Origin: a virus
Taxonomy: Duplodnaviria > Heunggongvirae > Uroviricota > Caudoviricetes
DNA length: 64,000 nucleotides
IMG/VR virus record: IMGVR_UViG_3300031992_000041
Location: 1 to 64,000 of that record
Direction: 5' to 3' (one strand)
The notes beneath the pieces are model-generated. The model was not told the DNA's origin. It did no database searches and saw only the letters and a program-made list of their open reading frames with translations. The position numbers were made by a program, and so were the translations under genes. The number at the start of each line of letters is the position of its first letter. The first letter of the stretch is position 1. Of the stretch, positions 9,501 through 60,786 are shown one piece after another.

Positions 9501-10292
9501 CTACAATCCCATCACGGCTCGCGCTGCTGCAATGTCGGGGCGCGGGCTTTCCATGAACTTCCGGTACTGCCTGCAGTGGCCGCACGGACGGAACTCGCGC
9601 ATCCGCTGCCAGATGTCGGCAAAGTTGTCGGTATTGACATTGCCGACTGACGGGCACAGGCGGCTCTCTGACATGTGTACGTTACCCTCGCAATCCACCG
9701 ACGGCTTGCACATCTGGCGGTGCAGCATCATCGTGATACCGAACTCCTGCGGATCGGGCTTCTGGATAGCCACAAGGGTAGCGTTCAGACACGACATGAA
9801 GTGCGGGTTCTGGTCCACCTCCCGCTGCGCCTCGGGGTTTGTCCTGGCACGTCCGAGGTCCTGCATGAAGATGTGAGAGTCGGCATCGACAATCACCTTG
9901 TTGTACCGCTCGTATTCGTGCTTGTGGCTCACCACATAGTCGTATTCCTTGTACCATTGCTTATTGGTATATACCTGCATACCGAGGTAGCTGTGCAGCC
10001 GGCTTATCCACTCGATGCGCTGACGTTTGCGCTCGTCCTTCAACCACATGCCGTTCGACACGATGGAGAAGTTGCAGCCGGTAGCGAGGTCGAACCATTC
10101 GCACATTTCCGTGATGTGCTCGTTCTCCGTCGGCTCGCCGCCAGACAGCACGAAATGGCTGTTGCCTATATACGTGCCGAATTTCACGGCCTGCTTGAAC
10201 GTGTCAAGCGTCATCATCAGCCCCATTTCCTGTGCGTCCTCCATGCAGTGCGGACACATCATCGAGCATTTACTTGTAAGTTTTATCAACAT
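9501..10292 (-). CDS. radical SAM enzyme with additional C-terminal Cys cluster (SPASM/twitch-like?)
   Basis: N-terminal CSMMCPHC (CX3CX2C) at residues 9-16; SGGEPT SAM-binding motif; C-terminal CKPSVDC…C…CGHC Cys-rich segment. Confidence 0.7.
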   Translation of the reverse strand: MLIKLTSKCSMMCPHCMEDAQEMGLMMTLDTFKQAVKFGTYIGNSHFVLSGGEPTENEHITEMCEWFDLATGCNFSIVSNGMWLKDERKRQRIEWISRLHSYLGMQVYTNKQWYKEYDYVVSHKHEYERYNKVIVDADSHIFMQDLGRARTNPEAQREVDQNPHFMSCLNATLVAIQKPDPQEFGITMMLHRQMCKPSVDCEGNVHMSESRLCPSVGNVNTDNFADIWQRMREFRPCGHCRQYRKFMESPRPDIAAARAVMGL

Positions 10293-16225: not shown

Positions 16226-16717
16226 TTACATATTCAAAACTACATACTTCCCTTCGATGCCGCAGCGGCGCAGGCGGCGGTCGCACTCATGGCCCCATGC
16301 CACGAGGCATGACCCGAAGAACGGCGAGCTCTGGCGGCCGTCCGGCTGGATGAATTTCACGCGGTGGCGCATGAAGATCATCGAGGCTGCCGTGGGGAAG
16401 ATGACCTCCTGCCAGAGCAGGTTGTCCTGGCGGTTCACCAGCAGGGCGATGCCGTCGCCGTGGGCTGCCATCTTCTCGCAGAAGCGGCGCAGCGGCTCGC
16501 GGCTGTAGGGAGGGTTCATCCACACCGTGCCGTGCCAGTCGCGTGCCAGTCCGTCATCGTCCTTCGTGTAGCACACCGGCGCAATCTCGAACGGGCGCAC
16601 GTCCGCAGCAGGGGCGCACGGGTCGAGGTCGAAAGGTCCCAACTCGTCGATGATCCACTTTGGCGTGTACCACTCGTCGGTCGATACTTTCGGGTTATGC
16701 TGCTGTCGGGCATCCAT
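16226..16717 (-). CDS. dam: phage-type DNA N6-adenine methyltransferase (T1 Dam family)
   Basis: 163 aa; EWYTPKWIIDELGPFDLDPCA and VWMNPPYS (NPPY catalytic motif) match the small phage Dam family. Confidence 0.85.
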   Translation of the reverse strand: MDARQQHNPKVSTDEWYTPKWIIDELGPFDLDPCAPAADVRPFEIAPVCYTKDDDGLARDWHGTVWMNPPYSREPLRRFCEKMAAHGDGIALLVNRQDNLLWQEVIFPTAASMIFMRHRVKFIQPDGRQSSPFFGSCLVAWGHECDRRLRRCGIEGKYVVLNM

Positions 16718-17038: not shown

Positions 17039-17887
17039 TTACTTGTTCATGATTTTCGACACGTCCATGATCATCCCGCTGCCGCTGACGATCTGGGGCA
17101 TCTTGCCGTCCCACTTCTCTATCATGTCCTCCTGCACGATCATAGGCGATAGCGACGCGGCGATGGTCTTGTTGTAGTACGCCTCCGCGTCGGCCTTGAT
17201 TTTCATGGCCTTGGCGTTACCCTCTGCCTTGGCCACGGCAATCTTGGCGTTCGCCTCGGCCTCCTTCACCTCGTTCTCTGCCTTCAGCGCCGACTGTATG
17301 GCGGTGTTCTTCGCGTCGATCATGGACACGAGCGACTTGGGCGGGGTTATCTTCGAGGTGAACTCCTCGACCACGAAGCCCTCTGCCTCCAGCGACTTCT
17401 CCAGGCGGCGGCGCACGTCGCTCTCGAAGTTGGCACGGTTCGACATCAGCGAGTCCGAGGTGTACTGGTTGCCGCAGGTGCGGTAAGCCTCGTAGATGCA
17501 GGTACGGATATACCCCTCCTCCAGTTCCTTCACGCCGACGCGGTACTTGGTGAAGATGTCACACGCCTTGTCGGGGTTGATGCGGTAGGCGATGGTGGGG
17601 TCCATCTCGAAGAGCGAGGCATCCTTGGCGTTCACCGAGAACGTCTCGTACTGCTTGCGCTGCGTGAACGTGGGGTAGGTGAACACGTCGGTGGTGACGG
17701 GATTGTAGAACACCCATCCCTTGCACGTGCCCTCCACGCCGCCGTAGTCCTGCTCGCTGACCGACCACTTGTGGAACTTGATGCCCACCTCGCCGGAATC
17801 GACCACCGTGCAGCAGGCAAAGAAGATGATTACTACCAGCAGGACCGAGCCTGCGATTGCGATTAAGTTACGAATCTGTTTTTCCAT
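17039..17887 (-). CDS. SPFH/band-7 (stomatin/HflC-like) domain protein
   Basis: N-terminal TM, GEVGIKFHKW core, Ala/Lys/Glu-rich coiled-coil AEANAKIAVAKAEGNAKAMKIKADAEAYYNK typical of SPFH proteins. Confidence 0.7.
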   Translation of the reverse strand: MEKQIRNLIAIAGSVLLVVIIFFACCTVVDSGEVGIKFHKWSVSEQDYGGVEGTCKGWVFYNPVTTDVFTYPTFTQRKQYETFSVNAKDASLFEMDPTIAYRINPDKACDIFTKYRVGVKELEEGYIRTCIYEAYRTCGNQYTSDSLMSNRANFESDVRRRLEKSLEAEGFVVEEFTSKITPPKSLVSMIDAKNTAIQSALKAENEVKEAEANAKIAVAKAEGNAKAMKIKADAEAYYNKTIAASLSPMIVQEDMIEKWDGKMPQIVSGSGMIMDVSKIMNK

Positions 17888-18754: not shown

Positions 18755-20542
18755 TTAGTCGTTACTTAACTTCTCGCACAGGGCCTCGCAGAGCACGCGG
18801 GCCATGTTCACCTCCACGGCATTGCCGATGTATTTCTTCTGCTCGGCCTGCGTGCCGACGAGGGTGTAGTCCTCTGGGAATCCCATGATGCGCTTCAGCT
18901 CGCGGATGTTCAGCATGCGCATCTTTACGTCGATGATGCAGTACATGGCCATGAATTCCTTCACCTTGCGCGTCATCGGGCTATCGGTCTCGTAGATGGC
19001 GATGCCCAGGTCGCCGTGCTCAGTGGTTACGAGGTAGGGCGGCATCTTGTCCATGCGGGCAATCAGCGTGAAGCAGGGGCTGTCGATGCTGTTGCCGTCG
19101 CTCTTGTAGGAGAACGGGTTGGCCAGGAACTGGTCGGCAGATACGACGCTCTGCTTGGGGTTGTTGACGATGGTCGGTGCCACAGAGTCAATCGGCGACG
19201 GCGTGCCCTTGCCGTACTGGTTGTCGAGGAACCGGCGCGTCATCACCCTCACCTGATCCAGCGGCACGTCGGGCATGGGTTTGTCGAGGTCGATGCCGTC
19301 GGCGCTCACCAGCGCATGGCGCTCTTTAGTAGTCACGGTGGGGTTCGGCTCGTCGATGCTGGTGTTGTAGCCGTTGCCGAAGTAGGCGGTCACAAAGGCG
19401 TGCCTTGCCCTCGTGGTCAAAGTCGTCGCAGGTTTTTCGATGTTATGGTTATGTTCAGCACCCCCGTAATACTCAGTAAGGAACTTAGCCGATACTATTG
19501 CGTGGTGGTCTTTTGTTGTGACGGTGCCGGCGGGGCGGTCTATGCCCTGGTTCTTCCCCATGGGGTCGCCGCTGAACTGCTTCGACAGGAAGTTGACCTT
19601 TACGATGCCCAGCCGGTTCTGCACGGCCACCGTCGGACACGGCTCGTCTATCGACGGCGCGTTATGGTGGTGCTGCTGGTTCATTGAGTTATACTTCAGG
19701 ATCCATGCCTCGTGCTGTTTCTTGCCGCCTGCCACGAACTTGACGAGTCCGGCGTAGATGCGCTCCAGCGTCTTCTCGCACAGCGGCTTCTTCTTGCCGA
19801 AGATGCTTGTGCCCTCGTCCTGCAGGTCGAGCACGTCGCGCACCGCGTTCCACGGCTTGTACTGGTCGGGGAAGAGATTATTGAGGACGGCATCGACTTC
19901 TGCACGCTTGGCATGCGTCTGTCGTGGAAACACGATGGGCAGTCCCTTGCGGGCGAACTGTCCGAAGAACCGGCGGCGCGAGGTGTAGGCCCCGTAGTCG
20001 GCGGCGTTCAGGATGCGCCAGTCGTAGTCGTAGCCGTAGCCACGGACGGCGTTCACCCAACGGACGTAGCAGCGTCCCTTGTCACGGCTCACGGGCTTGC
20101 CGTTCTCGTCGAGGTCTCCCCAGCACATGAACTCCTCCACGTTCTCTATCTGTATGTAGTCTGGTCTGACGGCCTCGATGTATCGGAACAGGTGTTCTGC
20201 CAGCGTGCGGCTGTCGGCGTCACGGGGCTGACCGCCCTTCGCCTTCGAGAAGTTCGTGCATTCCAGCGACGCCCACAGCACGACGTGTGCCTCCGGGTAG
20301 CGTTTCTTCATCCGCTCCAGGTGCATCACCATCGGTGCCAGGTCGAGCGTGCGGATATCCTCGGTGAAATGTACCGCGTCGGGATGGTTGGCGGCATGCG
20401 AGGCGATGGCGTTGGCGTCGTGGTTGACGCAGGCTATCACCTTGGCGCACTTCCGGCCGTCGTGCCGTGCGCTCTCCACGCCGGTGGACGTGCCGCCCGC
20501 CCCGCAGAAGAGGTCGATGTATAGTAGTTGGATGTCGTTCAT
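18755..20542 (-). CDS. DNA (cytosine-5)-methyltransferase with six tandem repeat modules in the variable (target-recognition) region
   Basis: motif I DLFCGAGG, PC-type region, ENV (motif VI), motif IX/X RELKRIMGFPEDY…GNAV; variable region holds six repeats of ~[ST]I[DE]xPxPT[VLI]xTxxxxHAxV. Confidence 0.9.
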   Translation of the reverse strand: MNDIQLLYIDLFCGAGGTSTGVESARHDGRKCAKVIACVNHDANAIASHAANHPDAVHFTEDIRTLDLAPMVMHLERMKKRYPEAHVVLWASLECTNFSKAKGGQPRDADSRTLAEHLFRYIEAVRPDYIQIENVEEFMCWGDLDENGKPVSRDKGRCYVRWVNAVRGYGYDYDWRILNAADYGAYTSRRRFFGQFARKGLPIVFPRQTHAKRAEVDAVLNNLFPDQYKPWNAVRDVLDLQDEGTSIFGKKKPLCEKTLERIYAGLVKFVAGGKKQHEAWILKYNSMNQQHHHNAPSIDEPCPTVAVQNRLGIVKVNFLSKQFSGDPMGKNQGIDRPAGTVTTKDHHAIVSAKFLTEYYGGAEHNHNIEKPATTLTTRARHAFVTAYFGNGYNTSIDEPNPTVTTKERHALVSADGIDLDKPMPDVPLDQVRVMTRRFLDNQYGKGTPSPIDSVAPTIVNNPKQSVVSADQFLANPFSYKSDGNSIDSPCFTLIARMDKMPPYLVTTEHGDLGIAIYETDSPMTRKVKEFMAMYCIIDVKMRMLNIRELKRIMGFPEDYTLVGTQAEQKKYIGNAVEVNMARVLCEALCEKLSND

Positions 20543-21480
20543 ACTTCTTTATTATTCTGTTCTTCGATTCGCTTCAGGGCGATGTCGTAGTATTCTTTGT
20601 TGAGTTCAAACCCGACGTAGTGGCGGTGCAGCATCATGGCGGCAACGGCCGTCGTCGCCGTACCCATGAACGGGTCGAGTACCGTTCCGTCCTGCGGGCA
20701 TCCAAGGGATATACACTCAAAGGGCAACTCCACGGGGAATGTGGCGTGATGACCTTCGTAGCCCGGCTTCACCAGCACCGACCACACATCACGCTTGTTG
20801 CGCTTGCCGTCGCTCTGGTTGCCGCCACGGAACTGCTCCTGCCTGTGTCCGGGTACGACAAACTTCACCTTGCGGTGGTTGTACTCGTTCTTCCGAACTC
20901 CCGTGTTGGCAGGCTCGCGCAGGGCTTCCGAATCGAAATAGTAGCGGGCCGACTTGGTGAGCATGAAGATGTACTCGTGGCTCTTCGTACAGCGACACTT
21001 CACGCTCTCCGGCATCGGGTTCGGCTTGTGCCAGATGATGTCCTGACGCAGGAAGAACCCCATGTCGCGCAGGGCGAAGGCCAGCATCCATGGAATGCCG
21101 ATAAGGTCACGGTCTTTGGCCTCCGTCTTGAACTTGAATGAGATGGCGCGGTCTAACGTCCCACGGTTTGTCCCTTGCAGATACAGTTTGGCATTCTCGG
21201 GGTATCTTGCAGCCCCTTTGTTGCTTCCCGCATACGAGTCGCCGATGACCACCCAGCACGTCGCAGTTGGCTTCATCACGCGCAGCACCTCGCGGAACAC
21301 GTCGCACAGTCTGGCGATATACTCCTCCGGCGACGATTCCAGTCCAATCTGCCCTTCCACTCCGTAGTCACGCAGGGCATAGTAGGGCGGCGATGTCACC
21401 ACGCAGTCCACGCTCCCTTCTGGAATCCGCTTCATTCCTTCCAGGCAGTTCTCGTTGTATATCTTGTCAAGTTCCATCAT
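20539..21480 (-). CDS. beta-class DNA methyltransferase (N4-cytosine or N6-adenine; SPPY motif)
   Basis: DCVVTSPPY (motif IV) N-terminal, C-terminal LDPFMGTATTAVAA (motif I); start at MMELDK preceded by GGAGGAGTT. Confidence 0.85.
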   Translation of the reverse strand: MMELDKIYNENCLEGMKRIPEGSVDCVVTSPPYYALRDYGVEGQIGLESSPEEYIARLCDVFREVLRVMKPTATCWVVIGDSYAGSNKGAARYPENAKLYLQGTNRGTLDRAISFKFKTEAKDRDLIGIPWMLAFALRDMGFFLRQDIIWHKPNPMPESVKCRCTKSHEYIFMLTKSARYYFDSEALREPANTGVRKNEYNHRKVKFVVPGHRQEQFRGGNQSDGKRNKRDVWSVLVKPGYEGHHATFPVELPFECISLGCPQDGTVLDPFMGTATTAVAAMMLHRHYVGFELNKEYYDIALKRIEEQNNKEV

Positions 21481-21542
21481 AACTCCTCCTTTATCTCGTG
21501 AAACAATGTATATCTTGTCATCTCTATAGTCCGTTTGTCGTT

Positions 21543-22283
21543 TCACCACGAATCCCCTGGCATCATGCGGTATGTCTCACCGTCAAGCAAGAATCCATTC
21601 TTGTATTTCGACCGCTTCACTCCGTCTTCGCCCCATGCGCCCCACTGCTTGAAAAAGAAAGGCGTGTTCCAGCGCATACAGGCATCACGCAAGTTCGTGA
21701 ACCATTCAACAGGTGTACGACGGGCGCACGGTCCGCTCTCGCCGCCTGTTATGACCCAGTTGATGCCATCAAGGTTTATGTCGTTCATATTCCCAAGAAG
21801 CGGCTCACAACTAAGAAACTTCACGTTGTTGCACCTGATGTTACGCAAAGAGTCTATGCGGTCATAGTGCCGGCTGTTCTCGCACGTCACTCCCAGCCAC
21901 ACATTCTTCGGAAGCAAATGAGGATGACTTATAAAGTATTCCTCCATTCCCCACGGGCGTTTGGTCAGTATCTGGTAGGTGTGCTGCGGTGTCTTCTCAA
22001 TGACTCGCATAACTTGGTTTATCCATGTGTGAGGCACGTCTTCGTGGAACAGGTCGCCCATTGAGCAGACAAATACCATGCTTGGCTTCTTCCATTCGTA
22101 AGGATCCTTCATCACATTGACATTTCGCGCAACCTGAAATCCGTTCTCGTAACTCGAGATATGGTTGCCTTGCAACCTGCGAGCCATCACCTCCGCATAG
22201 CAGTTTTTGCACGCCTCGCTTACCTTCGTACAACCATGTATCGGATTCCAAGTTTTTTCAGTCCATTCAATTTTTCTCATCAT
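21543..22283 (-). CDS. phage Gp37/Gp68-family protein (DUF5131)
   Basis: N-terminal KIEWTEKTWNPIHGCTKVSEACKNCYAEVMARRL is the family's signature Cys motif; 246 aa. Confidence 0.75.
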   Translation of the reverse strand: MMRKIEWTEKTWNPIHGCTKVSEACKNCYAEVMARRLQGNHISSYENGFQVARNVNVMKDPYEWKKPSMVFVCSMGDLFHEDVPHTWINQVMRVIEKTPQHTYQILTKRPWGMEEYFISHPHLLPKNVWLGVTCENSRHYDRIDSLRNIRCNNVKFLSCEPLLGNMNDINLDGINWVITGGESGPCARRTPVEWFTNLRDACMRWNTPFFFKQWGAWGEDGVKRSKYKNGFLLDGETYRMMPGDSW

Positions 22284-22437
22284 ATTACTTTCTCATTATT
22301 TTCTTCCTTAACGACTATCAGTTTAACTTTATCTTCTTGACATAGCACTCTGGATTTGGGTAGGCGTAAAATCCTGCACATTTCCTATAAAGTTTTGCAC
22401 ATCCTTTACAATAGCCTTCATCTTTTTGCTTTCATAA

Positions 22438-22860
22438 CTATTCCTCCTTATCCCATGTTACATAATACGAGTCGCAATTATTGTGCGTACCAAGCAGATG
22501 ATCGTTACCGTCGTAGGGAATACATTGCTTCCACCATCCTCCAATGCAGTGGTACTGGTTGCCGCATAGTGGCTTGTATGTGCTGAACAGGTCCGCCTCC
22601 CAAGAGTCGCCATCATCAAGCCTTCTAAGCACCTTTTGGAATGGCTTGAACTTAGTTGGGTCATAATGTATAGAATCGTCAAATCTTTGTATATTATAGT
22701 CGCATAATACGGGAATACCGCATACTTTTCTCGCTCTTGAATCGCCGCAAATCCATTTCACCTCGTAATTCAAGTCAACGTCCGTGTAAAAGTCAACAAT
22801 GTCGAACACAGAATCGCCGTAAACGATTCTATCGCCTTTTGTAAATTTTGGTTGTGTCAT
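22438..22860 (-). CDS. hypothetical protein (140 aa), first gene of the low-GC island
   Basis: ORF track; marked drop in GC. Confidence 0.5.
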   Translation of the reverse strand: MTQPKFTKGDRIVYGDSVFDIVDFYTDVDLNYEVKWICGDSRARKVCGIPVLCDYNIQRFDDSIHYDPTKFKPFQKVLRRLDDGDSWEADLFSTYKPLCGNQYHCIGGWWKQCIPYDGNDHLLGTHNNCDSYYVTWDKEE

Positions 22861-23360
22861 ACTTTTCTGATTTGGATGTTTATTTTATCACCAGCAACTA
22901 TGTCAAGTGTATCTAATGTTGACTGTGGGACTTTGATAAGCATTCCCCCTGTAGATGCGCCTTTTACTACTTCTTTGGTTAACCCTCTTGCAGGCTCTTT
23001 AGGACACCCGTGAGCAAGAGCCATACTTTGCGCTTGAATTTCGACTTTTGCTTGATTCTTACCCCACTCAGAACCCCGATAGAATCCCTTTGCAAAGGCT
23101 AATTCTTGGGAATTGTCTTCCAGTGCATCAACAGTTGCTGCCCCTCTGTCATTGTAACCTTTCCATTCTCTTGCAAGTGCTTCTTCCAAATCCTCGCTTA
23201 CAGGCTCTTCTTGCATAGTGTCAAGTATAGCAAGAACCTCATTGTATGCCTCTTCCTTGCAACGTGTCTCCATTGCAATTTGTGAAGCGCAAACACCTCT
23301 TAATAATTGCGATTTCAGTTTTTCAACCTCTTCACGGATTTTCTGTACTTTGTCTGTCAT
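22857..23360 (-). CDS. hypothetical protein with C-terminal AbrB/MazE-like swapped-hairpin segment
   Basis: C-terminus GGMLIKVPQSTLDTLDIVAGDKINIQIRKV resembles the SpoVT/AbrB fold. Confidence 0.45.
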   Translation of the reverse strand: MTDKVQKIREEVEKLKSQLLRGVCASQIAMETRCKEEAYNEVLAILDTMQEEPVSEDLEEALAREWKGYNDRGAATVDALEDNSQELAFAKGFYRGSEWGKNQAKVEIQAQSMALAHGCPKEPARGLTKEVVKGASTGGMLIKVPQSTLDTLDIVAGDKINIQIRKV

Positions 23361-23363
23361 ACA

Positions 23364-23555
23364 TTATTCGCTTATTAAATTCATAACTTTATTGTACGAT
23401 TCTGCGTTTAAATTGTATTTCGTGCCATTTTTAAGGATAAGTATATAGCCTGTATAACTAAAACCTCCTTCTATGTGACACGAACTGATTTCGTCAACAT
23501 TGACCATTATTTCGCCACCTCTTCCTTGGGTTCTCAAACTAATAAAATGTGTCAT
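23364..23555 (-). CDS. hypothetical protein (63 aa)
   Basis: ORF track. Confidence 0.4.
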   Translation of the reverse strand: MTHFISLRTQGRGGEIMVNVDEISSCHIEGGFSYTGYILILKNGTKYNLNAESYNKVMNLISE

Positions 23556-23811
23556 ACCTCCTCTCCTTTCTGTGCTTTATTCCTTATACATCCCTCATAA
23601 GGTGATACATAACATTCATTATCTTTCTTCTGATACCAAAAACATTTAGTTGGTTTAAGACATTTATCTTCTGTCTCCACCTTCATAACTATTCAATTTT
23701 ATTTGTTGTATGTGTATTTGCTGGCTTTGGTTGCCTTTCATCGCAGAGAGCAGCACTGCAATACTGGCAGTGCCTATCTTCTGGTTTAATGTCAAATATA
23801 CACGGCATACT

Positions 23812-25020
23812 TTATTCCTCCCTTAGTTTCTTTAATTCATCTAAAATCTCTTTAAGTCCTATAGCATTAATACCACGATCTTTGTACATGCTAATAGCAT
23901 CTGTAATACACCCTAAATGAAATGCACTCGGCTTCCAAGTGTTCTGGGGTCTGAGGGATTTAAGCCAATCCATATCTTGATTCACAGCAAAACGTGTTCT
24001 GGTAAAGGTAGCACCTTTCTTACACATTCCATCAAGTCTTTTAAGGATACTTTCAATATGTTCTTCATCCTCTTTACTCCATTCTTGTTTTGGTACAAGT
24101 CCTAAGAGAATGTTTGCTTGTTCTTTTATTGCATTAGTATCATTCGGGTCTAAACCTGCATTTTCTCCAAAGAAGGAACCTCCTATATGCATCATTGCAT
24201 TTTCAAAATCAGTCAAATCACCTGTATTTTCTTGTCTCCATTCTTGCTTAGGTTGTGGTTGTACTTTGTCCTTGAGTGATTTAAGCCAATCCATCTCACT
24301 TGCATTTAATCTACTCATATAAGAAATACAATTATTGAGATGTATTATATCCTCTTCACTCCACTCAGCAGGCTTCTGTATAGTATCTATAAGTTCTTGT
24401 ATATGAGCATCAACATAATCTATTATATCCCCATTAGTTGGGGTTTCGTCTTTGCAATACCATCTAAATCTTTGGAATAGTTCTAACAACTTATCTTTTA
24501 GGATTGAATTGTTACATTCAGCAGACTTTTGTTTATATTTTGCTTTGGACGCAACATTGTAACCATCAGGAGTTTTTACTATCCATGCTCCAACTGGTAT
24601 TTCATAGTGACTACCATCTGCATTAAATAGTTTAAAAATACCATTGTGGTCATCGACATATTTCTCATACTCTTCAAAAGATTTGAACCACTTTCCAAAG
24701 TTCTTATCTTTACCTGTGAAGTCAATTACTTCTTTTAAATTATTACCTTTCCATTGAATCATATAAGGCTTCTGCTCGCCTTGCTTTTCAAGCAAAGCAA
24801 GAATTTTAGCCTTAAAAATATTTGAGTTGTCCACATAGTTATTAAGTATCGCAATGATACCTTTCCTTATCTCCTCATCCTCACTCTCTTTGAGTTCGGG
24901 GAAAAGGTCTTGCAAGTCGCTTATAAACGGCTTAGTTGTAGGATAGGCACATAATTGACGTGCCTTTTCTAAAGCCTTATCATAGGCTTTAGCCTTTTCT
25001 TCTATTGATAGTTCTTTCAT
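23812..25020 (-). CDS. hypothetical protein with internal repeats (402 aa)
   Basis: repeated EWS(E/K)ED…MDWLKSL(K/R) modules; low GC. Confidence 0.5.
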   Translation of the reverse strand: MKELSIEEKAKAYDKALEKARQLCAYPTTKPFISDLQDLFPELKESEDEEIRKGIIAILNNYVDNSNIFKAKILALLEKQGEQKPYMIQWKGNNLKEVIDFTGKDKNFGKWFKSFEEYEKYVDDHNGIFKLFNADGSHYEIPVGAWIVKTPDGYNVASKAKYKQKSAECNNSILKDKLLELFQRFRWYCKDETPTNGDIIDYVDAHIQELIDTIQKPAEWSEEDIIHLNNCISYMSRLNASEMDWLKSLKDKVQPQPKQEWRQENTGDLTDFENAMMHIGGSFFGENAGLDPNDTNAIKEQANILLGLVPKQEWSKEDEEHIESILKRLDGMCKKGATFTRTRFAVNQDMDWLKSLRPQNTWKPSAFHLGCITDAISMYKDRGINAIGLKEILDELKKLREE

Positions 25021-25104
25021 AATTCAATAAAGTTTATATTTAATTTCTGCCAATCAGCAAAATGTCTTGCAATACAAAACATATATATGTTTGTTATTAT
25101 CACT

Positions 25105-25413
25105 TTAACGCTTACAATATTGCTTTACTTCACTCCAAACTTCTTCTTTAAGTCTTATTTCGTCAGAACCATCATATTTCCAATGATAAGACTCATAAGA
25201 ATCTCTTTTTACTTTTTTGGAAAACATTCCGCAATATTTGCATTTTATTTCTGCCCAGAATGGTATAACAATAGAATCACCACTACCTTCATGGAAGTAC
25301 ATTTCTAAATTACCCCCACAAATAGGACATTTTGCTAAAGCGATTTCTTTATTTAATTTTTCCTCACGTTCAACATACTGTATCTGACGTTTAAGTAGTT
25401 CTTTATCTAACAT
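25105..25413 (-). CDS. hypothetical zinc-ribbon protein (102 aa)
   Basis: CPICGG…CKYCG. Confidence 0.45.
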   Translation of the reverse strand: MLDKELLKRQIQYVEREEKLNKEIALAKCPICGGNLEMYFHEGSGDSIVIPFWAEIKCKYCGMFSKKVKRDSYESYHWKYDGSDEIRLKEEVWSEVKQYCKR

Positions 25414-25415
25414 GT

Positions 25416-25760
25416 CTACAACATTTTAAGTTCATGTAATTTCTCTATCATAGCAACACAAGCATCAACAAGATTGTCTGCTTTAGTATATAAATCGCTC
25501 ATGTGTGGATATGTAATATAGTTGTCATCGAGATCTATTATTGGTTTACCACCTTGAATTTCTGGTAAGACACTAAGCAACGCTGCGAGACTCCAACATG
25601 GGTGTGCTAATCCGATTCCACTATAATGGCAGACAGGTTCTTTTGCATAGTTATATTCAAACGCATCTTTTGGATAGCACATATCCGCACTCTCTAATGG
25701 CAATATTTCTGCCAACTTCTTTGACTGCTCTATGTCTGTATAACTCTTAATTGTTGCCAT
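25416..25760 (-). CDS. hypothetical protein (114 aa)
   Basis: ORF track. Confidence 0.45.
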   Translation of the reverse strand: MATIKSYTDIEQSKKLAEILPLESADMCYPKDAFEYNYAKEPVCHYSGIGLAHPCWSLAALLSVLPEIQGGKPIIDLDDNYITYPHMSDLYTKADNLVDACVAMIEKLHELKML

Positions 25761-25896
25761 AGTTATATACTAAAAACATGATGTAATATTTTCAATCTCA
25801 TTTCCTTACCACATTCAGAACAGTAGGCATCACCATGTATATGCATGGTTGCAGGTTCTTCACATATAATACATTTTTCTGTAATTGTTGCCATAA

Positions 25897-26133
25897 TTAT
25901 TTCTTTTTAAGTTCTTCAATTAGTGCATCGGCATATCTTACAGCAAGGTTAGGAAAGGTATCTCCTTCTTTAAGATACACGCCACTATTTGCTAACAAAC
26001 CTTGCATAGCTGCTATTGCGGCCTGATTGCGCAGTGAGTTAATTGACTCAATGTAGCCCTCTTCATAACCTTCTTTATAGGCATAATATGATTCAGTACC
26101 ATACACTGCCTTGATTTCCTCTTTTGTTTTCAT
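25897..26133 (-). CDS. hypothetical protein (78 aa)
   Basis: ORF track. Confidence 0.45.
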   Translation of the reverse strand: MKTKEEIKAVYGTESYYAYKEGYEEGYIESINSLRNQAAIAAMQGLLANSGVYLKEGDTFPNLAVRYADALIEELKKK

Positions 26134-27539: not shown

Positions 27540-28235
27540 TTATATGAGAGACTTGATCCATCCCAGGGCCTGCCATGTGTTCCAAGAAGAGCGCAGGGCA
27601 TCGTAGAGCGCGTCGTGCGCCTCCTTACCGCTGGTGTACTGTTCAGGCAGGGGGTCAAAGAGTCTGTATGCCGAAGAAGGATCTGCAAGGATCTGTAAAG
27701 GCAAGGCTATGCCGTTGGCCTTCGTACTCTTTCCGTTCATGCTGCGCTCCGCCTCAATAAGTGCCGCCTCCAGAATGATCGTCCGGCAGTCGCGGAACTG
27801 GGTGTGCGGCACGATGTCCTCCAGATTGATGTCATACTTACGGCAGAGGTTCCTGAGGATGGCAATATCTACGTCAGGCCCCTGGCACCACAGGCAGATG
27901 CTCTGCAACTCGTAGCGTTTCACAATTCTACGGATATAGTCAAGCGTGTTTATCAGCACGTCCGTGATCGCCTCCGGCAGTTCCGCCGTCACCGCCGCCT
28001 TCGCGGCATCTCCACGCTGTTCCCACCACCTGATCGTAGCCGGGTCGAAGTCAAATCCGTCCACCACGCACGTCCGCAGGTCCACATAGCCAACGAAAGG
28101 CTCCGTGTCCTGACAGTCAAAGAAGGGGTCACTCTCGTCGTCCCGCTTCCAGGGAACGACGGCCACCTGCATCACAGCCGCATTGGCCGATAGGCTGCAG
28201 GTCTCAAAGTCGATTGTAAAGTCAAGATGTGTCAT
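27540..28235 (-). CDS. DnaQ-like (DEDDh) 3'-5' exonuclease
   Basis: Exo I LDFTIDFETCS, Exo III HDALYDAL motifs; 231 aa. Confidence 0.75.
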   Translation of the reverse strand: MTHLDFTIDFETCSLSANAAVMQVAVVPWKRDDESDPFFDCQDTEPFVGYVDLRTCVVDGFDFDPATIRWWEQRGDAAKAAVTAELPEAITDVLINTLDYIRRIVKRYELQSICLWCQGPDVDIAILRNLCRKYDINLEDIVPHTQFRDCRTIILEAALIEAERSMNGKSTKANGIALPLQILADPSSAYRLFDPLPEQYTSGKEAHDALYDALRSSWNTWQALGWIKSLI

Positions 28236-28677: not shown

Positions 28678-31600
28678 CTATTCTTCTGCCTCCGGATCAG
28701 TCTCGCCGGCTCCCTGTACCCAGTCGGCGTCGCCGGCATGGGCTTCGTCGTAGAAATGGCGCGGCACGCGGCCCTTGCGGTAGAAATAGTACACGCGCGG
28801 GTACGGAGCCCTCCTCACCAACTCACGGGGCAGGCGGTTGCCGGAGTCATCGGTGGCTACGCTGTAGCCGTCGGTGCCACGGGGGTGCTGCCACGCGGCA
28901 CAGCGGCGGAAGCCGTTCTCCCTGTCCGTCGGCGTGCTCAGCACCACGGGCGGGTCAGCCACGTAGACGCTTGTGCGGATGTAGTCGTCGATGTTGTCGC
29001 GGATGCGCTTGTAGGCACTCTTCAGCGTCTTCTCGCCGACGGTGACACCGCAGTAGTCGAGCAGCGAGATGGCCAGTTCGCGCTGGGCGATGGGCTGGCC
29101 GATATGCCTGCTGTCGGAGAGATACCCAGCAATCCATCGGGTGAACTGCTCGTCCTTCGATGCCGCCAGTGCCTGGCGCAGCATGGCGCGGCTGTCACGC
29201 GGCGGCCTCATGGTCTCGTCAGGGAACTGCAGGAACAGCCTCACGCAGCCGAGCAGCACATTCCTCGCCTCGTTCAGGAGTGCCGGCGGCAGGTTCCTTG
29301 CCACCTCCTTGATGCCGTACTGCATCCTGAAGTCGTCGGCAGGCGTATGAGCCGGTCGCGAGCCGTCGATGCTCCGGGGGTGGTACCAGTCTGACACCAG
29401 CACCTGATAGGTACGCCGCGACGTCGAGTCGCTGCTGAGATCCAACTGCTCGTTCGATGCCACCACGAACTTCGGCAGGTCATCGCCCTCCAGCACGACG
29501 CTGGAGCGGTAGAGCCCGCGCGAGGTTAGTGAGAGCGTATAGTTGTAGAGCGTCTTCGGCGAGAAGCCCTGAGGCAGTTCGTCGAGTGCCACGATGGTGT
29601 GCAGACCCGGCACTACCTTGTCGAGTTCCTGCGTCAGCGTGACGTTTCCACCCTCCAGTGCCTTGCCGTCCACCTTCAGCACGCGGCGCACCAGTCCAAG
29701 GAGTTCCAGGATGGCAGTCTTTCCCGTTCCGCCACTGGCCAGGTCCTCGCGGCGTGTCCCGTTGTCGGTGATATGTATGTACTGCTGTCGGTTGGCAGGT
29801 CGGTGGCGCACCAGTGCAGAGCCGATGGCATGGAGCATGGCCACGAAGTACATGTCCTGCACCTGTCTCTCGGTAGCCGTTAGTTCGGCACCGGCAGCCT
29901 CCTTCTCCCAGAAGATGCGTGATGTGTTGTACAGGAAGCGGAAGTGCAGGGGCATCTCGTCGAGGGGCTTGTCCATGACCAGACGGTACTTCCAGAGCGA
30001 AGCCCATGCGTCCCAGCGCATGTTCTCCTGCGCGCACTCGTCGGTGGTGTGTGCCGCCCGGATAATCTCGTCGTGCTTCTCCAGTTCCCCCTGATAGAGC
30101 GGGTTCACGACTACGCGCCATGCCTGTGGCAGCAGCGTGAACGTACCGCCGAGGATGGCCTCCGAGTTGGTCCACCATTTCATGCGGCCGTAGGGCACGG
30201 TCTCGATGCCGTCCTTCGTCACGAGCACGGCGGTGTTGTCAAAGAAGAAGTGGTCGAAGTCCTCGCCGAAACTCTTCTCGTCGAAGTCGAGCGTCTCGAT
30301 CGACTCCATCGTCGACTGCTCCAGTTTCGCGGAGTAGATGGCGCGGCTCAGGGCTCCCTTGCCGTCGTTATACTCCTTGTGAGCCCGCAGCCACTCTGCC
30401 ATCAGGTCGCGCGACTGCGCCACGATCTTGTTGGGGCTTCCCTTCTCACCGGGGAAGCACTCGGTGTATTTCCTGTCGTTGCCCAGCAGGAAGAAACGGC
30501 TGAACGACACCTTGCCCTGCTGCATCACGCGGCGCACCATGCCGCGTGCCCGCAGGAAGACCGGGGTGTTGCGCAGGTCGAACTTATACCTTGCCCTTCC
30601 GGTGCCGTCGGCATCCTTGCGCTCGCTCTCCCACTGCCAGAACTGCGTCGTCGGCGTGTCGAAGAGGGCGTTGTCGAACCAGTCCACGGGGTCGTCGTGC
30701 TGCAGGTCGGCGGGCATCCTGCCCTCCACCTCCTGAAAACGAGTGATGAAGTCGGTCACGTCCTTGCACCGGCGCTCCGCCGTCCTGCCGTTCACAATCT
30801 CTCGTAGTTCCTTCGGCAGGCGGAGCCAGTGGATGTTCGGAGAGTTGAGCGCTATCGCCTGACTGGCGGCCAGCCCCGTCTCGTCCTCGTCGTAGCACAC
30901 GTACAGGCCGCCGTCGGCCGTCACGGCCTGCAACTTCCTCAGCAGCGCGCGCAGCCAGCGGTTGGGCCGAAGGTTATCACCCTTCTTGTTAAAGCCGCTC
31001 TGCTCGCTATGCAGCCATACGACGTGCGCGTCGCTGTGGCTCCACACGGCGATGGCGTCACGCGGCCCTGAACAGAGCACCACACGACCGAAGCGCGGCC
31101 TCGCCGTCTTTTCTTCCTTGTCGCCGTCCTTGTCTCTCCTCTGTTCAACAAGCGGATGCCGGCTGTCCGGCTGCGGCACCACGCCGTCATCAAGATAGTC
31201 GCGCAACGCGGCGTCGGCATACCAACGGTGGTCAAGGTCGGCATCCTCGCTGACGTGCCACCAGGTCCACTTCGTATTGGCGTAAGTAGTCCTCGGCTCG
31301 TATTTCTTGATACCCCACGGATAGCGGAAGATAAACATCGGGTAGTTCTTCGTAGCCCTGACGATCATGACCACCGCACCGCCCTGCTTCGGCGTCTCGC
31401 GCTTGATGAACCGGCTGATCGGCTCAACGCCGAACACGCCGCACACCTCTTCGCCCCAGGCCTGTATGGTCCTGGTCTCCGCCTTCTGCCCGCGATAAAA
31501 ATCCCTGCCAAAGGAGCAGCGGTAAAGCGCCGCTCCAGTGTCAGGGTCAAAATCTGTCATTAAATCGCCAAATCTCACTTCCGATCTTCTGTTTCCCGTA

Positions 31601-32154
31601 TATTCGTCTAATTCGTTCTTTTTCATCCGGTGCGTCGACATCTCCACCTTCAGGCCCAGGGCCTTCAGGCCTTCCTCGGTCCACTGGCCAGGCTCGAAGA
31701 GCGGCTGGTCGCCACTCCAGTCGGCATACTGTTTCTCTTCCTTGCGGAACTCGTCCCATCCCACGATGCTCACACGCAGACTGCCCGAGCCGTGCCTGCC
31801 ATCCTCCTTCGGCTCCGGCTCCAGTTCCACCTCGCAGCGCGTCATAAGTTCCGAAAGCACCATCGCCAGATCCTCGGCGGGCACCTTGCCGGCAGGCAGC
31901 CCCATCAGCCTCGCAGCCAGTTGTATGGCGCCATAGCCCGTCTCGCCGCAGGCAAAGCACTTGAAGCCAAGGTCTGTGGCATCGTCGCGCAACGCCTTGT
32001 CAACCACCAGCGACGGGTGATGGTCGTCATGCCATGGACATTGGTACGTGGCAAACGCGCCGGTCTTCGACTCGTGCTTCGGCACATAGCCCCAGCCTCG
32101 CATCACCTCCACGAGCGGTATGGCATTCAGTATCTTCAGGTTAGTATCCGTCAT
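28678..32154 (-). CDS. DNA primase / helicase (CHC2 zinc finger N-terminus, P-loop NTPase in the C-terminal half)
   Basis: 1158 aa; CPWHDDHHPSL…FKCFACGETG (DnaG-type CHC2 zinc finger); Walker A ASGGTGKTA. Confidence 0.8.
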   Translation of the reverse strand: MTDTNLKILNAIPLVEVMRGWGYVPKHESKTGAFATYQCPWHDDHHPSLVVDKALRDDATDLGFKCFACGETGYGAIQLAARLMGLPAGKVPAEDLAMVLSELMTRCEVELEPEPKEDGRHGSGSLRVSIVGWDEFRKEEKQYADWSGDQPLFEPGQWTEEGLKALGLKVEMSTHRMKKNELDEYTGNRRSEVRFGDLMTDFDPDTGAALYRCSFGRDFYRGQKAETRTIQAWGEEVCGVFGVEPISRFIKRETPKQGGAVVMIVRATKNYPMFIFRYPWGIKKYEPRTTYANTKWTWWHVSEDADLDHRWYADAALRDYLDDGVVPQPDSRHPLVEQRRDKDGDKEEKTARPRFGRVVLCSGPRDAIAVWSHSDAHVVWLHSEQSGFNKKGDNLRPNRWLRALLRKLQAVTADGGLYVCYDEDETGLAASQAIALNSPNIHWLRLPKELREIVNGRTAERRCKDVTDFITRFQEVEGRMPADLQHDDPVDWFDNALFDTPTTQFWQWESERKDADGTGRARYKFDLRNTPVFLRARGMVRRVMQQGKVSFSRFFLLGNDRKYTECFPGEKGSPNKIVAQSRDLMAEWLRAHKEYNDGKGALSRAIYSAKLEQSTMESIETLDFDEKSFGEDFDHFFFDNTAVLVTKDGIETVPYGRMKWWTNSEAILGGTFTLLPQAWRVVVNPLYQGELEKHDEIIRAAHTTDECAQENMRWDAWASLWKYRLVMDKPLDEMPLHFRFLYNTSRIFWEKEAAGAELTATERQVQDMYFVAMLHAIGSALVRHRPANRQQYIHITDNGTRREDLASGGTGKTAILELLGLVRRVLKVDGKALEGGNVTLTQELDKVVPGLHTIVALDELPQGFSPKTLYNYTLSLTSRGLYRSSVVLEGDDLPKFVVASNEQLDLSSDSTSRRTYQVLVSDWYHPRSIDGSRPAHTPADDFRMQYGIKEVARNLPPALLNEARNVLLGCVRLFLQFPDETMRPPRDSRAMLRQALAASKDEQFTRWIAGYLSDSRHIGQPIAQRELAISLLDYCGVTVGEKTLKSAYKRIRDNIDDYIRTSVYVADPPVVLSTPTDRENGFRRCAAWQHPRGTDGYSVATDDSGNRLPRELVRRAPYPRVYYFYRKGRVPRHFYDEAHAGDADWVQGAGETDPEAEE

Positions 32155-60560: not shown

Positions 60561-60786
60561 AAAAATCTAAAACAAACTTTCTCTCCTACAAAAAAACAGC
60601 CCGCCAGCACACTAGATGCCCTACGGTGCCCACTTTCTCGTTCTCATTCTGTACAATGTAAATTCTAAGCATGGTCTAAAAAAATATTGTAAAACAGATG
60701 CATACAAAAATAGCCCTTCGTTTTTTAAAAACAAGGGCTGGAATGAAAAATCCAAGGGCCGGAATAAAAGGACTGGATGGAGTGAC

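What the first reader, a model, noticed from the sequence alone, without database searches (positions are those of the whole stretch)
18755..20542. C5-cytosine methyltransferase with six tandem repeat modules in its variable region
The conserved catalytic motifs are present: FCGAGG, ENV and the motif IX/X block RELKRIMGFPEDY…GNAV. They flank a ~250-aa variable region containing six consecutive repeats of ~25 aa. Each repeat is built on [ST]I[DE]xPxPT[VLI]xTxxxxHAxV. The repeat copies include SIDEPCPTVAVQNR, GIDRPAGTVTTKDHHAIV, NIEKPATTLTTRARHAFV, SIDEPNPTVTTKERHALV, PIDSVAPTIVNNPKQSVV and SIDSPCFTLIARMDK. In phage multispecific C5-MTases such as SPR and phi3T of Bacillus, each tandem target-recognition domain confers one target specificity. 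Six modules in one enzyme would be an unusually broad self-protection device.
Basis: partly seen in the sequence, partly recalled or inferred. Interest (0 to 1): 0.6.

Follow-up and report, generated by a model that had tools for sequence, protein, structure and literature searches.

The report
Multi-module mobile-element cytosine DNA methyltransferase
This gene encodes a DNA cytosine methylase from a Bacteroidota phage or other mobile element that carries a row of short, interchangeable DNA-recognition modules, probably so that one enzyme can shield the element's DNA from several host restriction enzymes; the idea is old (Bacillus phages), but this large gut-associated family has not been tested.

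Summary
ORF 18755-20542 (minus strand, 595 aa) is a C5-cytosine methyltransferase, and six copies of I[DE]xxxxT[VLI] lie between motifs VIII and IX, against 0.04 expected by chance.

The modules match the target-recognising domains (TRDs) of the Bacillus phage multispecific enzymes SPR, rho11s and H2 in register (hhalign 88%). Near-identical homologs differ by clean gain or loss of single modules.

Three corrections apply:
- **Module 6 is constant.** PCFTLIARMDKxPPYL is the last module in 185 of the 275 proteins typed and the only one modelled confidently, so it is probably scaffold. That leaves five candidate specificity modules, two of them paralogs.
- **Six is ordinary here.** 115 full-length cluster representatives carry 1-9 modules of more than 25 types; 38 carry six or more.
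- **Multispecificity is inferred, not shown.** No family member has a published methylome that I could find.

The gene is an orphan: no restriction endonuclease was detected among the flanking ORFs tested. It sits in an anti-restriction-rich element with three other methylase genes, an ArdC-like gene and extreme palindrome avoidance (CTAG once in 64 kb).

Verdict: a probable new variant of a known kind, of moderate interest.

The parts
18755..20542 (-). Complete CDS of the C5-cytosine DNA methyltransferase (595 aa plus stop)
   Evidence: ORF listing; Pfam PF00145 E 2e-34; phrog_116 E 8e-81
19898..20542 (-). Catalytic core, aa 1-215. Motif I FCGAGG (aa 12-17), motif IV ECTNFS with Cys95, motif VI ENV (aa 133-135), motif VIII TSRRRFF (aa 187-193)
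   Evidence: Sequence alignments to 3G7U, M.HhaI and DNMT1; invariant columns C95, E133, N134, V135, R189, R191; pLDDT mostly 84-97, with two dips to 63-77
19673..19897 (-). Conserved post-motif-VIII segment, aa 216-290 (helix 256-270), preceding the module array
   Evidence: 85% identity among close homologs; mean pLDDT per 10-residue block 70-92 over aa 211-270, falling to about 55 at aa 271-280 and about 40 at aa 281-290
19565..19672 (-). Module 1 (type B), aa 291-326, core SIDEPCPTVAVQNRLGIV
   Evidence: found in 149 proteins; 91% identical among close homologs
19493..19564 (-). Module 2 (type C), aa 327-350, core GIDRPAGTVTTKDHHAIV
19391..19492 (-). Module 3 (second type-C copy), aa 351-384, core NIEKPATTLTTRARHAFV. 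This 34-aa unit is absent from the closest homolog P0001 and six others in the 14-sequence alignment
   Evidence: Alignment A1 shows a clean in-frame indel; occupancy 0.54
19301..19390 (-). Module 4 (type D), aa 385-414, core SIDEPNPTVTTKERHALV
   Evidence: weak BLASTP alignment to the SPR element EPAFTVNTIDRHGVAV (39% identity over 18 aa, not significant; SPR sequence)
19214..19300 (-). Spacer, aa 415-443 (GIDLDKPMPDVPLDQVRVMTRRFLDNQYG). Possibly a degenerate seventh module with the anchor Thr replaced by Asp
   Evidence: Occupies the columns of a genuine module (SSINEPAPTICT...) in P0030, but is not detected by the module HMM. Low confidence
19121..19213 (-). Module 5 (type E), aa 444-474, core PIDSVAPTIVNNPKQSVV
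   Evidence: the most variable module among close homologs, 59% identity
19013..19120 (-). Module 6 (type A, constant), aa 475-510, core SIDSPCFTLIARMDKMPPYLV. Probably scaffold of the small domain rather than a variable specificity module
   Evidence: Last module in 185 proteins, including 66 of the 50%-identity cluster representatives; mean pLDDT per 10-residue block 72-81 across aa 471-510 here and 87-93 in the minimal homolog P0239
18758..19012 (-). Pre-IX hairpin and helix (aa 511-540), then motifs IX (RMLNIRELKRIMGFPEDY) and X (GNAV), aa 541-595
   Evidence: Alignments to M.HhaI residues 266-315 and 3G7U residues 304-365; mean pLDDT per 10-residue block 74-85 over the pre-IX hairpin and helix (aa 511-540) and 84-97 over motifs IX-X (aa 541-595)
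20539..21549 (-). Upstream neighbour on the same strand: N6/N4 amino-methyltransferase. Its stop overlaps the C5-MTase start by 4 nt (ATGA)
   Evidence: Pfam PF01555 E 9e-50; coordinates
21543..22283 (-). DUF5131 (phage Gp37/Gp68 family) gene, head of the same co-directional cluster
   Evidence: Pfam PF07505 E 1e-93; PADLOC candidate families PDC-M30B and PDC-M41B
16226..16717 (-). Phage-type Dam N6-adenine methyltransferase, 2 kb downstream. Part of the same methylation and anti-restriction complement
   Evidence: Pfam PF05869 E 2e-16; TIGR01712 match, below cut-off

Best explanation
An orphan, mobile-element-encoded DNA (cytosine-5) methyltransferase of the multi-TRD kind.

Catalysis. The SAM-dependent core (motifs I-VIII and X; Cys95 as nucleophile, Glu133 of ENV, Arg189 and Arg191) does the chemistry.

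Target choice. Between motifs VIII and IX lies an array of units of about 35 aa. Each has a Gly-rich loop, S-I-D/E-x-P-x-x-T-[VLI]-T-T, a variable 4-5 residue turn, then h-A-h-V. Five units (types B, C, C, D, E) are portable minimal target-recognising domains. The constant sixth unit, together with motif IX, forms the fixed scaffold of the small domain. One variable unit at a time docks on DNA opposite the catalytic cleft and selects a short target.

Outcome. A single polypeptide would methylate several different sequence classes, probably 3-5. It is co-expressed with an adjacent N6/N4 methylase and protects the element's DNA from several host Type II restriction systems.

Evolution. Modules are gained, lost and duplicated by in-frame recombination at the conserved junctions (HAxV ... 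F[LI]xxYYG).

Shown here: the gene, the motifs, the fold, the repeat array and its position, the natural modular variation, and orphan status among the neighbours tested.

Inferred: that the modules are functional TRDs, that they act independently, the number of specificities, and the protective role.
For: - **C5-MTase identity.** PF00145 E 2e-34. Catalytic residues are invariant in 149 homologs. The fold matches M.HhaI/M.HaeIII with TMt 0.66-0.70.
- **Repeats are real and correctly placed.** Six motif copies against 0.04 expected, all between motifs VIII and IX.
- **Resemblance to proven TRDs.** A profile of 65 modules aligns in register, Thr on Thr, with the Bacillus phage TRDs (hhalign probability 88%, E 2.9e-6). 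Anchor spacing in SPR and rho11s is 30-48 aa, against 28-55 aa here.
- **Modularity.** Homologs 74-95% identical differ by clean single-module indels. 118 close homologs show 15 architectures, led by BCDEA (77) and BCCDEA (19, the window's). 115 full-length representatives carry 1-9 modules of more than 25 types in many combinations.
- **Modules are conserved, not linkers.** Modules 1-4 are 79-91% identical to the window across 13 close homologs (alignment A1), against 86% for the core.
- **A constant last element exists in both families.** Type A here; EPAFTVNTIDRHG is shared almost unchanged by SPR, rho11s and H2. From memory, those three enzymes have different specificity sets.
- **Orphan in an anti-restriction context.** No restriction endonuclease model matched the six flanking ORFs tested, including both immediately adjacent ones. 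The window also carries an N6/N4 MTase, a Dam-type MTase, a DarB-like protein and an ArdC-like protein.
- **Known precedent.** Reviews state that Bacillus temperate phages protect against many R-M systems by arraying multiple TRDs in one polypeptide (PMC12707154; PMC8936443).
Against: - No methylation data exist for this protein or any family member that I could find.
- AlphaFold gives no confident structure for modules 1-5 (pLDDT 32-61). The same is true of the single variable module of a minimal homolog (pLDDT 46-54). Their position relative to DNA is therefore untested.
- The module profile finds nothing among PDB sequences.
- The modules (about 28-36 aa) are shorter than my recollection of the mapped Bacillus TRDs (about 40-50 aa; Trautner et al. 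1996, not readable here).
- Modules 2 and 3 are the same type and may be redundant. The Bacillus enzymes are known, from memory, to carry inactive pseudo-TRDs.
- The core is only 23% identical to M.SPRI, so the shared architecture could be convergent.
- The window strongly avoids GGCC, CCGG and AGCT, so these common C5 targets are apparently not relied on for protection.
Confidence: 0.6

Rival explanations
1. Monospecific enzyme. Only one element recognises DNA: either the constant module A or the last variable module packed against it. The other modules are degenerate remnants, spacers or solubility and structural elements.
For: Module A is the only module modelled with confidence, and it is nearly universal in the family. 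One unit in the window (aa 415-443) already looks degenerate. Pseudo-TRDs are known in the Bacillus enzymes (from memory).
Against: Modules 1-4 are about as conserved as the catalytic core among close homologs (79-91% against 86%); module 5 is less so (59%). Distinct module types recur across representatives of the 50%-identity clusters in different combinations. Remnants should decay instead. A constant module cannot explain why the array varies so much.
Confidence: 0.15
2. Relaxed or near non-specific cytosine methylase. The array of weakly specific hairpins lets the enzyme methylate most cytosines or very short contexts such as GC, CG or CC, giving blanket protection. This would be a cytosine counterpart of M.EcoGII.
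For: Phage C5-MTases with 2-3 nt specificity (GpC) exist (PMC8256090). The modules are short (28-36 aa). Blanket protection would suit an element that carries many anti-restriction genes.
Against: The element still strongly avoids C-containing palindromes: AGCT O/E 0.27, CCGG 0.61, GGCC 0.65, and many 6-mers. That would be unnecessary under blanket 5mC. Conserved, distinct module types suggest discrete specificities.
Confidence: 0.15
3. Composite recognition. All modules bind DNA side by side and together read one long or bipartite site. Module number would then tune site length rather than the number of sites.
For: Module order is partly conserved: B-like first, G-H, N-F and F-A pairs recurrent, A last. 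This could reflect cooperative packing.
Against: A flipped-base C5-MTase contacts about 4-8 bp around the target cytosine (established M.HhaI and M.HaeIII structures). Single modules come and go between homologs that are about 95% identical in the shared regions, which would wreck a composite site. The experimentally dissected Bacillus enzymes behave independently (PMC8936443).
Confidence: 0.06
4. Not a plain methyltransferase. The atypical motif IV (Glu-Cys instead of Pro-Cys) marks a C5-MTase-fold enzyme that transfers another group, for example carboxymethyl as in CmoX, or acts on another substrate.
For: Motif IV is ECTNFS, and E94 is conserved in at least 90% of homologs. CmoX (8YF3) is among the sequence and fold hits.
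Against: 8YF3 is no closer than ordinary MTases. Motifs I, VI, VIII and X are canonical. No Cx-SAM synthase, TET or glycosyltransferase gene was seen among the ORFs scanned. Proteobacterial phage relatives have SPDC[KR]HFS, so an acidic residue before the Cys appears to be a lineage trait.
Confidence: 0.04

Closest known systems
Multispecific C5-MTases of temperate Bacillus phages (M.SPRI, M.Phi3TI, M.Rho11sI, M.H2I)
   Same: Orphan enzymes encoded by mobile elements. Several short T[LIV]-centred recognition units stand in tandem between motifs VIII and IX, followed by a constant unit before motif IX. Anchor spacing is comparable, 30-48 aa against 28-55 aa.
   Different: The core is only 23% identical. 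Motif IV is ECTNFS rather than SPCQSFS. Here there are 5 variable units plus 1 constant, against 2-3 proven TRDs. The units have an S-I-D/E-x-P signature and a strong HAxV/YYG junction. The host phylum is Bacteroidota. Function is untested.
M.BssHII / M.(phi)BssHII (multispecific, circularly permuted C5-MTases of Geobacillus)
   Same: One C5-MTase methylates several targets (cited in PMC4081073, and PMC8936443).
   Different: Those enzymes have permuted motif order and/or TRDs at separate locations (PMC5944983). The window protein has the canonical I-X order and one contiguous array.
Uncharacterised homologs: Bacteroides phage BS-TP2 gp38, Porphyromonas gingivalis prophage methyltransferases, Cellulophaga phage phi4:1 methylase, Prevotella MAG proteins
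   Same: Same family: 58%, 51% and 43% identity, and 67-87% for the Prevotella metagenome proteins. Same ECTNFS motif IV, same module types and the same constant A module (BS-TP2: B-C-D-x-x-F-A; P. gingivalis phage: at least C-D-A, with a weaker NPK-type module between D and A).
   Different: They differ only in module complement. All are annotated simply as 'DNA methyltransferase'.
Large C5-MTases of proteobacterial phages (Escherichia phage Eeyore, Burkholderia phage BgManors32; about 620-645 aa)
   Same: 28-32% identity over 98% of the length. By eye they also contain about six xEPxxT[VI]T-like motifs, though the module HMM, built from Bacteroidota sequences, scores only one or two of them significantly. 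The multi-module layout may therefore extend across phyla.
   Different: Motif IV is SPDC[KR]HFS. Their module types are barely recognised by the Bacteroidota module HMM. Also uncharacterised.
Monospecific Type II C5-MTases M.HhaI and M.HaeIII
   Same: Same two-domain fold (TMt 0.66-0.70) and the same catalytic motifs.
   Different: They have a single TRD of about 90 aa between motifs VIII and IX, against about 345 aa here. The module profile has no detectable sequence match to any PDB chain.

Membership tests
DNA (cytosine-5) methyltransferase, Pfam PF00145 | Motif I SAM-binding loop FxGxG | tested here: met
   FCGAGG at aa 12-17; aligned to 3G7U and M.HhaI motif I
DNA (cytosine-5) methyltransferase, Pfam PF00145 | Motif IV catalytic Cys (consensus PCQxFS) | tested here: met
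   Cys95 aligns with the catalytic Cys of 3G7U and M.HhaI and is invariant in 149 sequences. The preceding Pro is replaced by Glu (ECTNFS), which is atypical
DNA (cytosine-5) methyltransferase, Pfam PF00145 | Motif VI ENV and motif VIII RxR | tested here: met
   E133, N134, V135, R189 and R191 are invariant
DNA (cytosine-5) methyltransferase, Pfam PF00145 | Motifs IX and X after a variable region; two-domain fold | tested here: met
   aa 536-585 align to M.HhaI residues 266-315. Foldseek TMt 0.66-0.70 to M.HhaI and M.HaeIII
DNA (cytosine-5) methyltransferase, Pfam PF00145 | Produces 5-methylcytosine in DNA | not testable with these tools
   Needs expression followed by LC-MS, bisulfite or EM-seq
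Multispecific C5-MTase (Bacillus-phage type) | Two or more TRDs in tandem, without overlap, between motifs VIII and IX | tested here: met
   Met at sequence level only. Six T[VLI]-anchored units at aa 291-510, five of them variable in the family
Multispecific C5-MTase (Bacillus-phage type) | Each TRD carries the conserved T-[LIV] core shared with other C5-MTase TRDs | tested here: met
   Anchors are TV, TV, TL, TV, TI, TL. Profile-profile match to SPR, rho11s and H2 TRDs is in register (probability 88%)
Multispecific C5-MTase (Bacillus-phage type) | TRDs are functionally independent: removing one leaves the others active | tested here: inconclusive
   Natural variants lacking or gaining single modules are common and otherwise conserved. 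This is compatible with independence, but activity was not measured
Multispecific C5-MTase (Bacillus-phage type) | Several distinct target sequences methylated by one polypeptide | not testable with these tools
   No methylome data found in the literature searches
Multispecific C5-MTase (Bacillus-phage type) | Orphan gene on a phage or mobile element, with no cognate endonuclease | tested here: met
   The six flanking ORFs tested, including both immediately adjacent ones, have no REase hit. Homologs lie in Bacteroides and Porphyromonas phages and in a 90-kb phage-like contig
Multispecific C5-MTase (Bacillus-phage type) | Close sequence relationship to the SPR, phi3T, rho11s and H2 enzymes | tested here: not met
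   23% identity over 194 aa of the core, E 1e-5. This is a different subfamily, so it probably works like them but does not belong to their lineage

The most novel reading that the evidence does not exclude
The window protein belongs to a very large, unstudied family: more than 2000 clusters at 50% identity with E below 1e-30 in the representative search. On this reading the family is a natural combinatorial library of portable minimal TRDs of about 35 aa, with more than 25 types and up to 9 per enzyme. Each would confer its own target. The window enzyme would then protect against about five restriction specificities at once, at least as many as any characterised methyltransferase. The module complement of each phage would mirror the restriction repertoire of its Bacteroidota hosts, and a module-to-motif 'TRD code' could be read out by methylome mapping of natural variants.
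Probability: 0.35. Interest if true: 0.65.

Novelty: new variant of a known kind. Interest (0 to 1): 0.45.

Why it matters
If each module is an independent TRD, three things follow.
- Gut and oral Bacteroidota phages and mobile elements would use a compact, rapidly re-shufflable device to defeat several host restriction systems with one gene.
- Module content could become a sequence-readable proxy for host range and for host R-M repertoires in metagenomes.
- The family would supply dozens of minimal, transplantable 5mC recognition modules for engineering methyltransferases and for improving transformation of restrictive Bacteroidota.

It would also show that the multi-TRD strategy, so far documented only for Bacillus phages (PMC12707154), is widespread. 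If the modules are not independent, the gene is simply an ordinary orphan phage methylase with a repetitive variable region.

Tried and rejected
**Structure**
- Modelling was meant to place the repeats relative to the DNA cleft. Modules 1-5 came out at pLDDT 32-61 in the window protein. Even the single variable module of the minimal homolog P0239 reached only 46-54. No conclusion on docking is possible. Mis-registered repeats in the MSA may contribute.
- Foldseek returns only global scores, so residue-level mapping of module A onto the M.HhaI TRD was not possible.

**Sequence comparisons**
- The module profile against PDB sequences gave no hit even at E <= 10, so no specificity can be transferred from solved TRDs.

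**Literature**
- Seven attempts, one rejected for a term that was too short, found no paper describing this family or any non-Bacillus tandem-TRD C5-MTase.
- The primary Trautner papers are not held.

**Provenance of the window**
- An exact-sequence lookup of the window protein found nothing on record.
- Megablast of 24 kb of the window against phage genomes found no match. The element type (phage or conjugative element) stays open.

**Hypotheses rejected**
- Recent DNA duplication or phase variation by repeat recombination: copies are only 28-53% identical at nucleotide level.
- A cognate R-M system: no endonuclease among the neighbours tested.
- A TET or hypermodification cluster: no such genes among the ORFs scanned.

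**Methodological cautions**
- A first control using random segments of the same protein allowed overlapping segments and was discarded in favour of the shuffle control.
- Initial module clustering produced off-register duplicate types (M, O, P, Y). These were removed before counting architectures.
Full report
**1. The observation**

All quoted strings are present. FCGAGG is at aa 12-17, ENV at 133-135, RELKRIMGFPEDY at 547-559 and GNAV at 573-576. The six repeats begin at aa 297, 333, 367, 395, 450 and 485.

The repeats are not chance. The pattern I[DE]x4T[VLI] occurs six times, against a mean of 0.04 (maximum 2) in 5000 shuffles of the protein. The mean pairwise BLOSUM62 score of the six 30-aa units is 38.7, against 16.3 +/- 0.9 for shuffled units. 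The copies are old: 13-50% amino-acid identity and 28-53% nucleotide identity. Recent duplication or recombinational switching is therefore not at issue.

Some figures need correcting. The period is 28-55 aa; the family median is 35 with an interquartile range of 33-37. The interval between motifs VIII and IX is about 345 aa. It is ECTNFS, with Cys95 aligned to the catalytic Cys of 3G7U and M.HhaI and invariant in 149 homologs. Glu stands where the usual Pro would be.

**2. What the protein is**

- Pfam PF00145 matches at E 2e-34 and phrog_116 'DNA methyltransferase' at E 8e-81.
- PDB sequence hits cover motifs I-VIII (aa 6-211) and IX-X (aa 529-590), with nothing in between.
- AlphaFold2 with a 149-sequence alignment gives mean pLDDT 73.6. 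The core and aa 470-595 are confident, while aa 278-470 (modules 1-5) score 32-61.
- Foldseek finds the canonical C5-MTase fold, with target-normalised TM-score (TMt) 0.66-0.68 to M.HhaI and M.HaeIII.

**3. The family**

More than 8000 relatives were retrieved by the word-indexed search. The top 120 are 67-87% identical by BLASTP over the full query. They have 511-632 aa and come mostly from metagenomes, some labelled Prevotella.

An exhaustive search of 50%-identity cluster representatives found 2018 clusters with E below 1e-30 and lengths of 271-1213 aa.

In isolated phages the best matches are Bacteroides phage BS-TP2 (58%), Porphyromonas gingivalis prophages (51%) and Cellulophaga phages (43%). 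Phages of Burkholderia, Escherichia, Klebsiella, Roseburia and others follow at 28-32% over about 98% of the length.

**4. The repeats behave as modules**

An alignment of 14 homologs, 74-95% identical to the window in their shared regions, shows clean in-frame presence or absence of single units. The window's third unit (HAIVSAKFLTEYYGGAEHNHNIEKPATTLTTRAR, 34 aa) is missing from P0001 and six others. P0010, P0024 and P0040 have an extra unit before the last one. P0030 has a genuine unit where the window has a spacer.

The window is B-C-C-D-E-A. Among 118 full-length close homologs, 77 are BCDEA, 19 are BCCDEA, and 13 further architectures with 4-7 units occur.

Among 115 full-length representatives of the 50% clusters, unit number ranges from 1 to 9, and 38 have six or more. 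More than 25 unit types appear in many combinations.

The units are conserved rather than decaying. Modules 1-4 are 79-91% identical among close homologs, against 86% for the catalytic core.

The shared scaffold is S-[IV]-[DE]-x-P-x-x-T-[IVL]-T-T-(4-5 variable residues)-h-A-h-V-...-F[LI]xxYYG. Types differ mainly in three places: the residues just before the Ser, the two residues between Pro and Thr, and the turn after TT.

**5. Comparison with proven TRDs**

I fetched the GenBank sequences of M.SPRI, M.Rho11sI and M.H2I. Their variable regions contain T[LIV]-anchored units, for example GLSPTITTNKGEG, AVSHTLSASDWRG and GVSPTLTTMGEG. Spacing is 30-48 aa. A unit that is the same in all three, EPAFTVNTIDRHGVA, follows just before motif IX.

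A profile of 65 window-family units aligns in register with a profile of the Bacillus units (hhalign probability 88%, E 2.9e-6, 18 columns, Thr on Thr).

Tandem TRDs giving several recognition sequences are established for these Bacillus phage enzymes (PMC8936443). A 2025 review presents this as a Bacillus phage strategy (PMC12707154).

**6. Not all six units are equal**

Unit 6 (type A, PCFTLIARMDKxPPYL) is the last unit in 185 proteins, including 66 representatives. It is the only unit modelled with confidence: pLDDT 72-81 in the window protein.

In a minimal two-unit homolog (P0239, 437 aa, mean pLDDT 88.8, pTM 0.88) it scores 87-93, while the single variable unit there scores 46-54. That minimal model matches M.HhaI and M.HaeIII with TMt 0.67-0.70.

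A constant unit cannot explain variable specificity. It parallels the constant EPAFTVNT unit of the Bacillus enzymes, which from memory have different specificity sets. I therefore read unit A as scaffold.

This leaves five candidate TRDs, of which units 2 and 3 are the same type (40% identical to each other).

The 55-aa gap between units 4 and 5 contains GIDLDKPMPDV..., which occupies the columns of a real unit in P0030. The module HMM does not recognise it, so it may be a degenerate seventh unit.

**7. Context**

The gene's start overlaps by 4 nt the stop of an N6/N4 amino-methyltransferase (PF01555, E 9e-50). A DUF5131 gene lies upstream of that one. The six flanking ORFs tested, including both immediately adjacent ones, match no endonuclease model.

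Almost all genes in the window are on the minus strand. The window also carries:
- a phage-type Dam methylase at 16226-16717;
- a 1667-aa DarB-like methylase-helicase at 41005-46008, about 49% identical to proteins of Bacteroides plasmids;
- an ArdC-like anti-restriction protein at 53517-54572;
- YopX and RtcB genes.

A homolog, P0014, sits in a 90-kb contig among many small ORFs next to a primase-like gene. Again no adjacent endonuclease is evident.

The window shows extreme palindrome avoidance. CTAG occurs once, against 168 +/- 11 in dinucleotide-preserving shuffles. By maximal-order Markov expectation, AGCT has O/E 0.27, GATC 0.43, CCGG 0.61 and GGCC 0.65, and several 6-mers occur 0-2 times. 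GCGC (1.04), TCGA and GTAC are not avoided.

The element thus combines site avoidance, several methylases and protein inhibitors. This fits a protective role for the C5-MTase. It also argues against blanket cytosine methylation.

**8. Mechanism proposed**

The core performs standard C5 chemistry. The constant unit A and motif IX form the fixed part of the small domain. One of the five variable units at a time docks in the major groove and selects a short target. The enzyme therefore methylates several sequence classes.

Confidence that at least two distinct specificities exist is about 0.6.

The rivals are a monospecific enzyme with vestigial units (0.15), relaxed or near non-specific methylation (0.15), composite recognition of one long site (0.06) and a different transferred group (0.04). 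All are separable by one methylome experiment plus single-unit deletions.

**9. Known or new?**

The principle is known. Membership of the Bacillus phage lineage fails, because the core is only 23% identical and motif IV differs. The protein probably works like those enzymes without being one of them.

Seven literature search attempts, one of which failed on a term that was too short, found no description of this family or of tandem-TRD C5-MTases outside Bacillus and Geobacillus. The library lacks most subscription journals, and REBASE was not available.

I rate it a new variant of a known kind. Six units is typical of its family rather than exceptional. Interest is moderate at 0.45. The value lies in the family as a whole being an untested, very large combinatorial TRD repertoire in gut and oral Bacteroidota mobile elements.

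Noticed in passing
window 1-64000 (single CTAG at 60612-60615): CTAG is almost eliminated: 1 site in 64 kb, against 168 +/- 11 in dinucleotide-preserving shuffles. Other palindromes are also strongly avoided: AGCT O/E 0.27, GATC 0.43, CCGG 0.61, GGCC 0.65, ATCGAT 0 observed against 16 expected, TTCGAA 0/12, CATATG 0/10.6, GTCGAC 7/39. GCGC, TCGA and GTAC are not avoided. This suggests heavy selection by host Type II systems (from memory, CTAG is the BfaI site of Bacteroides fragilis).
   Followed up: partly
window 41005-46008 (-): A 1667-aa DarB-like 'polyvalent' protein (phrog_10089 E 3e-255) with methylase-related and SNF2/helicase C-terminal regions. It is about 49% identical to proteins on Bacteroides fragilis and Phocaeicola plasmids.
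   Followed up: partly
window 53517-54572 (-): ArdC-like anti-restriction protein: ArdC N-terminal domain plus a zincin-like metallopeptidase (PF08401, PF18818; phrog_7245). Nearby, 47336-48736 carries DnaJ and LPD29 'polyvalent protein' domains.
   Followed up: no
window 16226-16717 (-) and 20539-21549 (-): Two further DNA methyltransferase genes: a phage-type Dam (PF05869) and an N6/N4 MTase (PF01555) whose stop overlaps the C5-MTase start. Counting the DarB-like protein, the window has four methylase-type genes.
   Followed up: partly
window 21543-22283 (-): A DUF5131 (phage Gp37/Gp68) gene heads the methylase cluster. It matches the PADLOC candidate defence families PDC-M30B and PDC-M41B at E about 1e-94. 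Its role next to methylases is unexplained.
   Followed up: no
window 22001-26000: A low-GC island (0.34-0.40, against about 0.54 elsewhere) containing a 402-aa ORF (23812-25020, minus strand) with no Pfam or PHROG match. It may be a recent insertion or moron.
   Followed up: no
window 28678-32154 (-): A 1158-aa ORF in the highest-GC stretch (0.61) with no Pfam or PHROG hit.
   Followed up: no
window 616-1842 (-), 9501-10292 (-), 27540-28235 (-): An RtcB-type RNA ligase (phrog_1075 E 8e-132), a weak radical-SAM protein match and an Rv2179c-like 3'-5' exoribonuclease. RtcB on a mobile element suggests tRNA repair as a counter-defence against anticodon nucleases.
   Followed up: no
L005 (Escherichia phage Eeyore, 2992-4929) and L006 (Burkholderia phage BgManors32, 1956-3821): These 620-645-aa C5-MTases of proteobacterial phages, with motif IV SPDC[KR]HFS, also carry about six xEPxxT[VI]T-like motifs by eye; the module HMM scores only one or two of them significantly. 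The multi-module layout may therefore extend well beyond Bacteroidota. In Eeyore the gene follows a PAPS-reductase-like gene.
   Followed up: partly
window 17039-17887 (-): An SPFH/Band-7 family membrane protein (PF01145) encoded just downstream of the methylase cluster. This is unusual cargo for a phage-like element.
   Followed up: no
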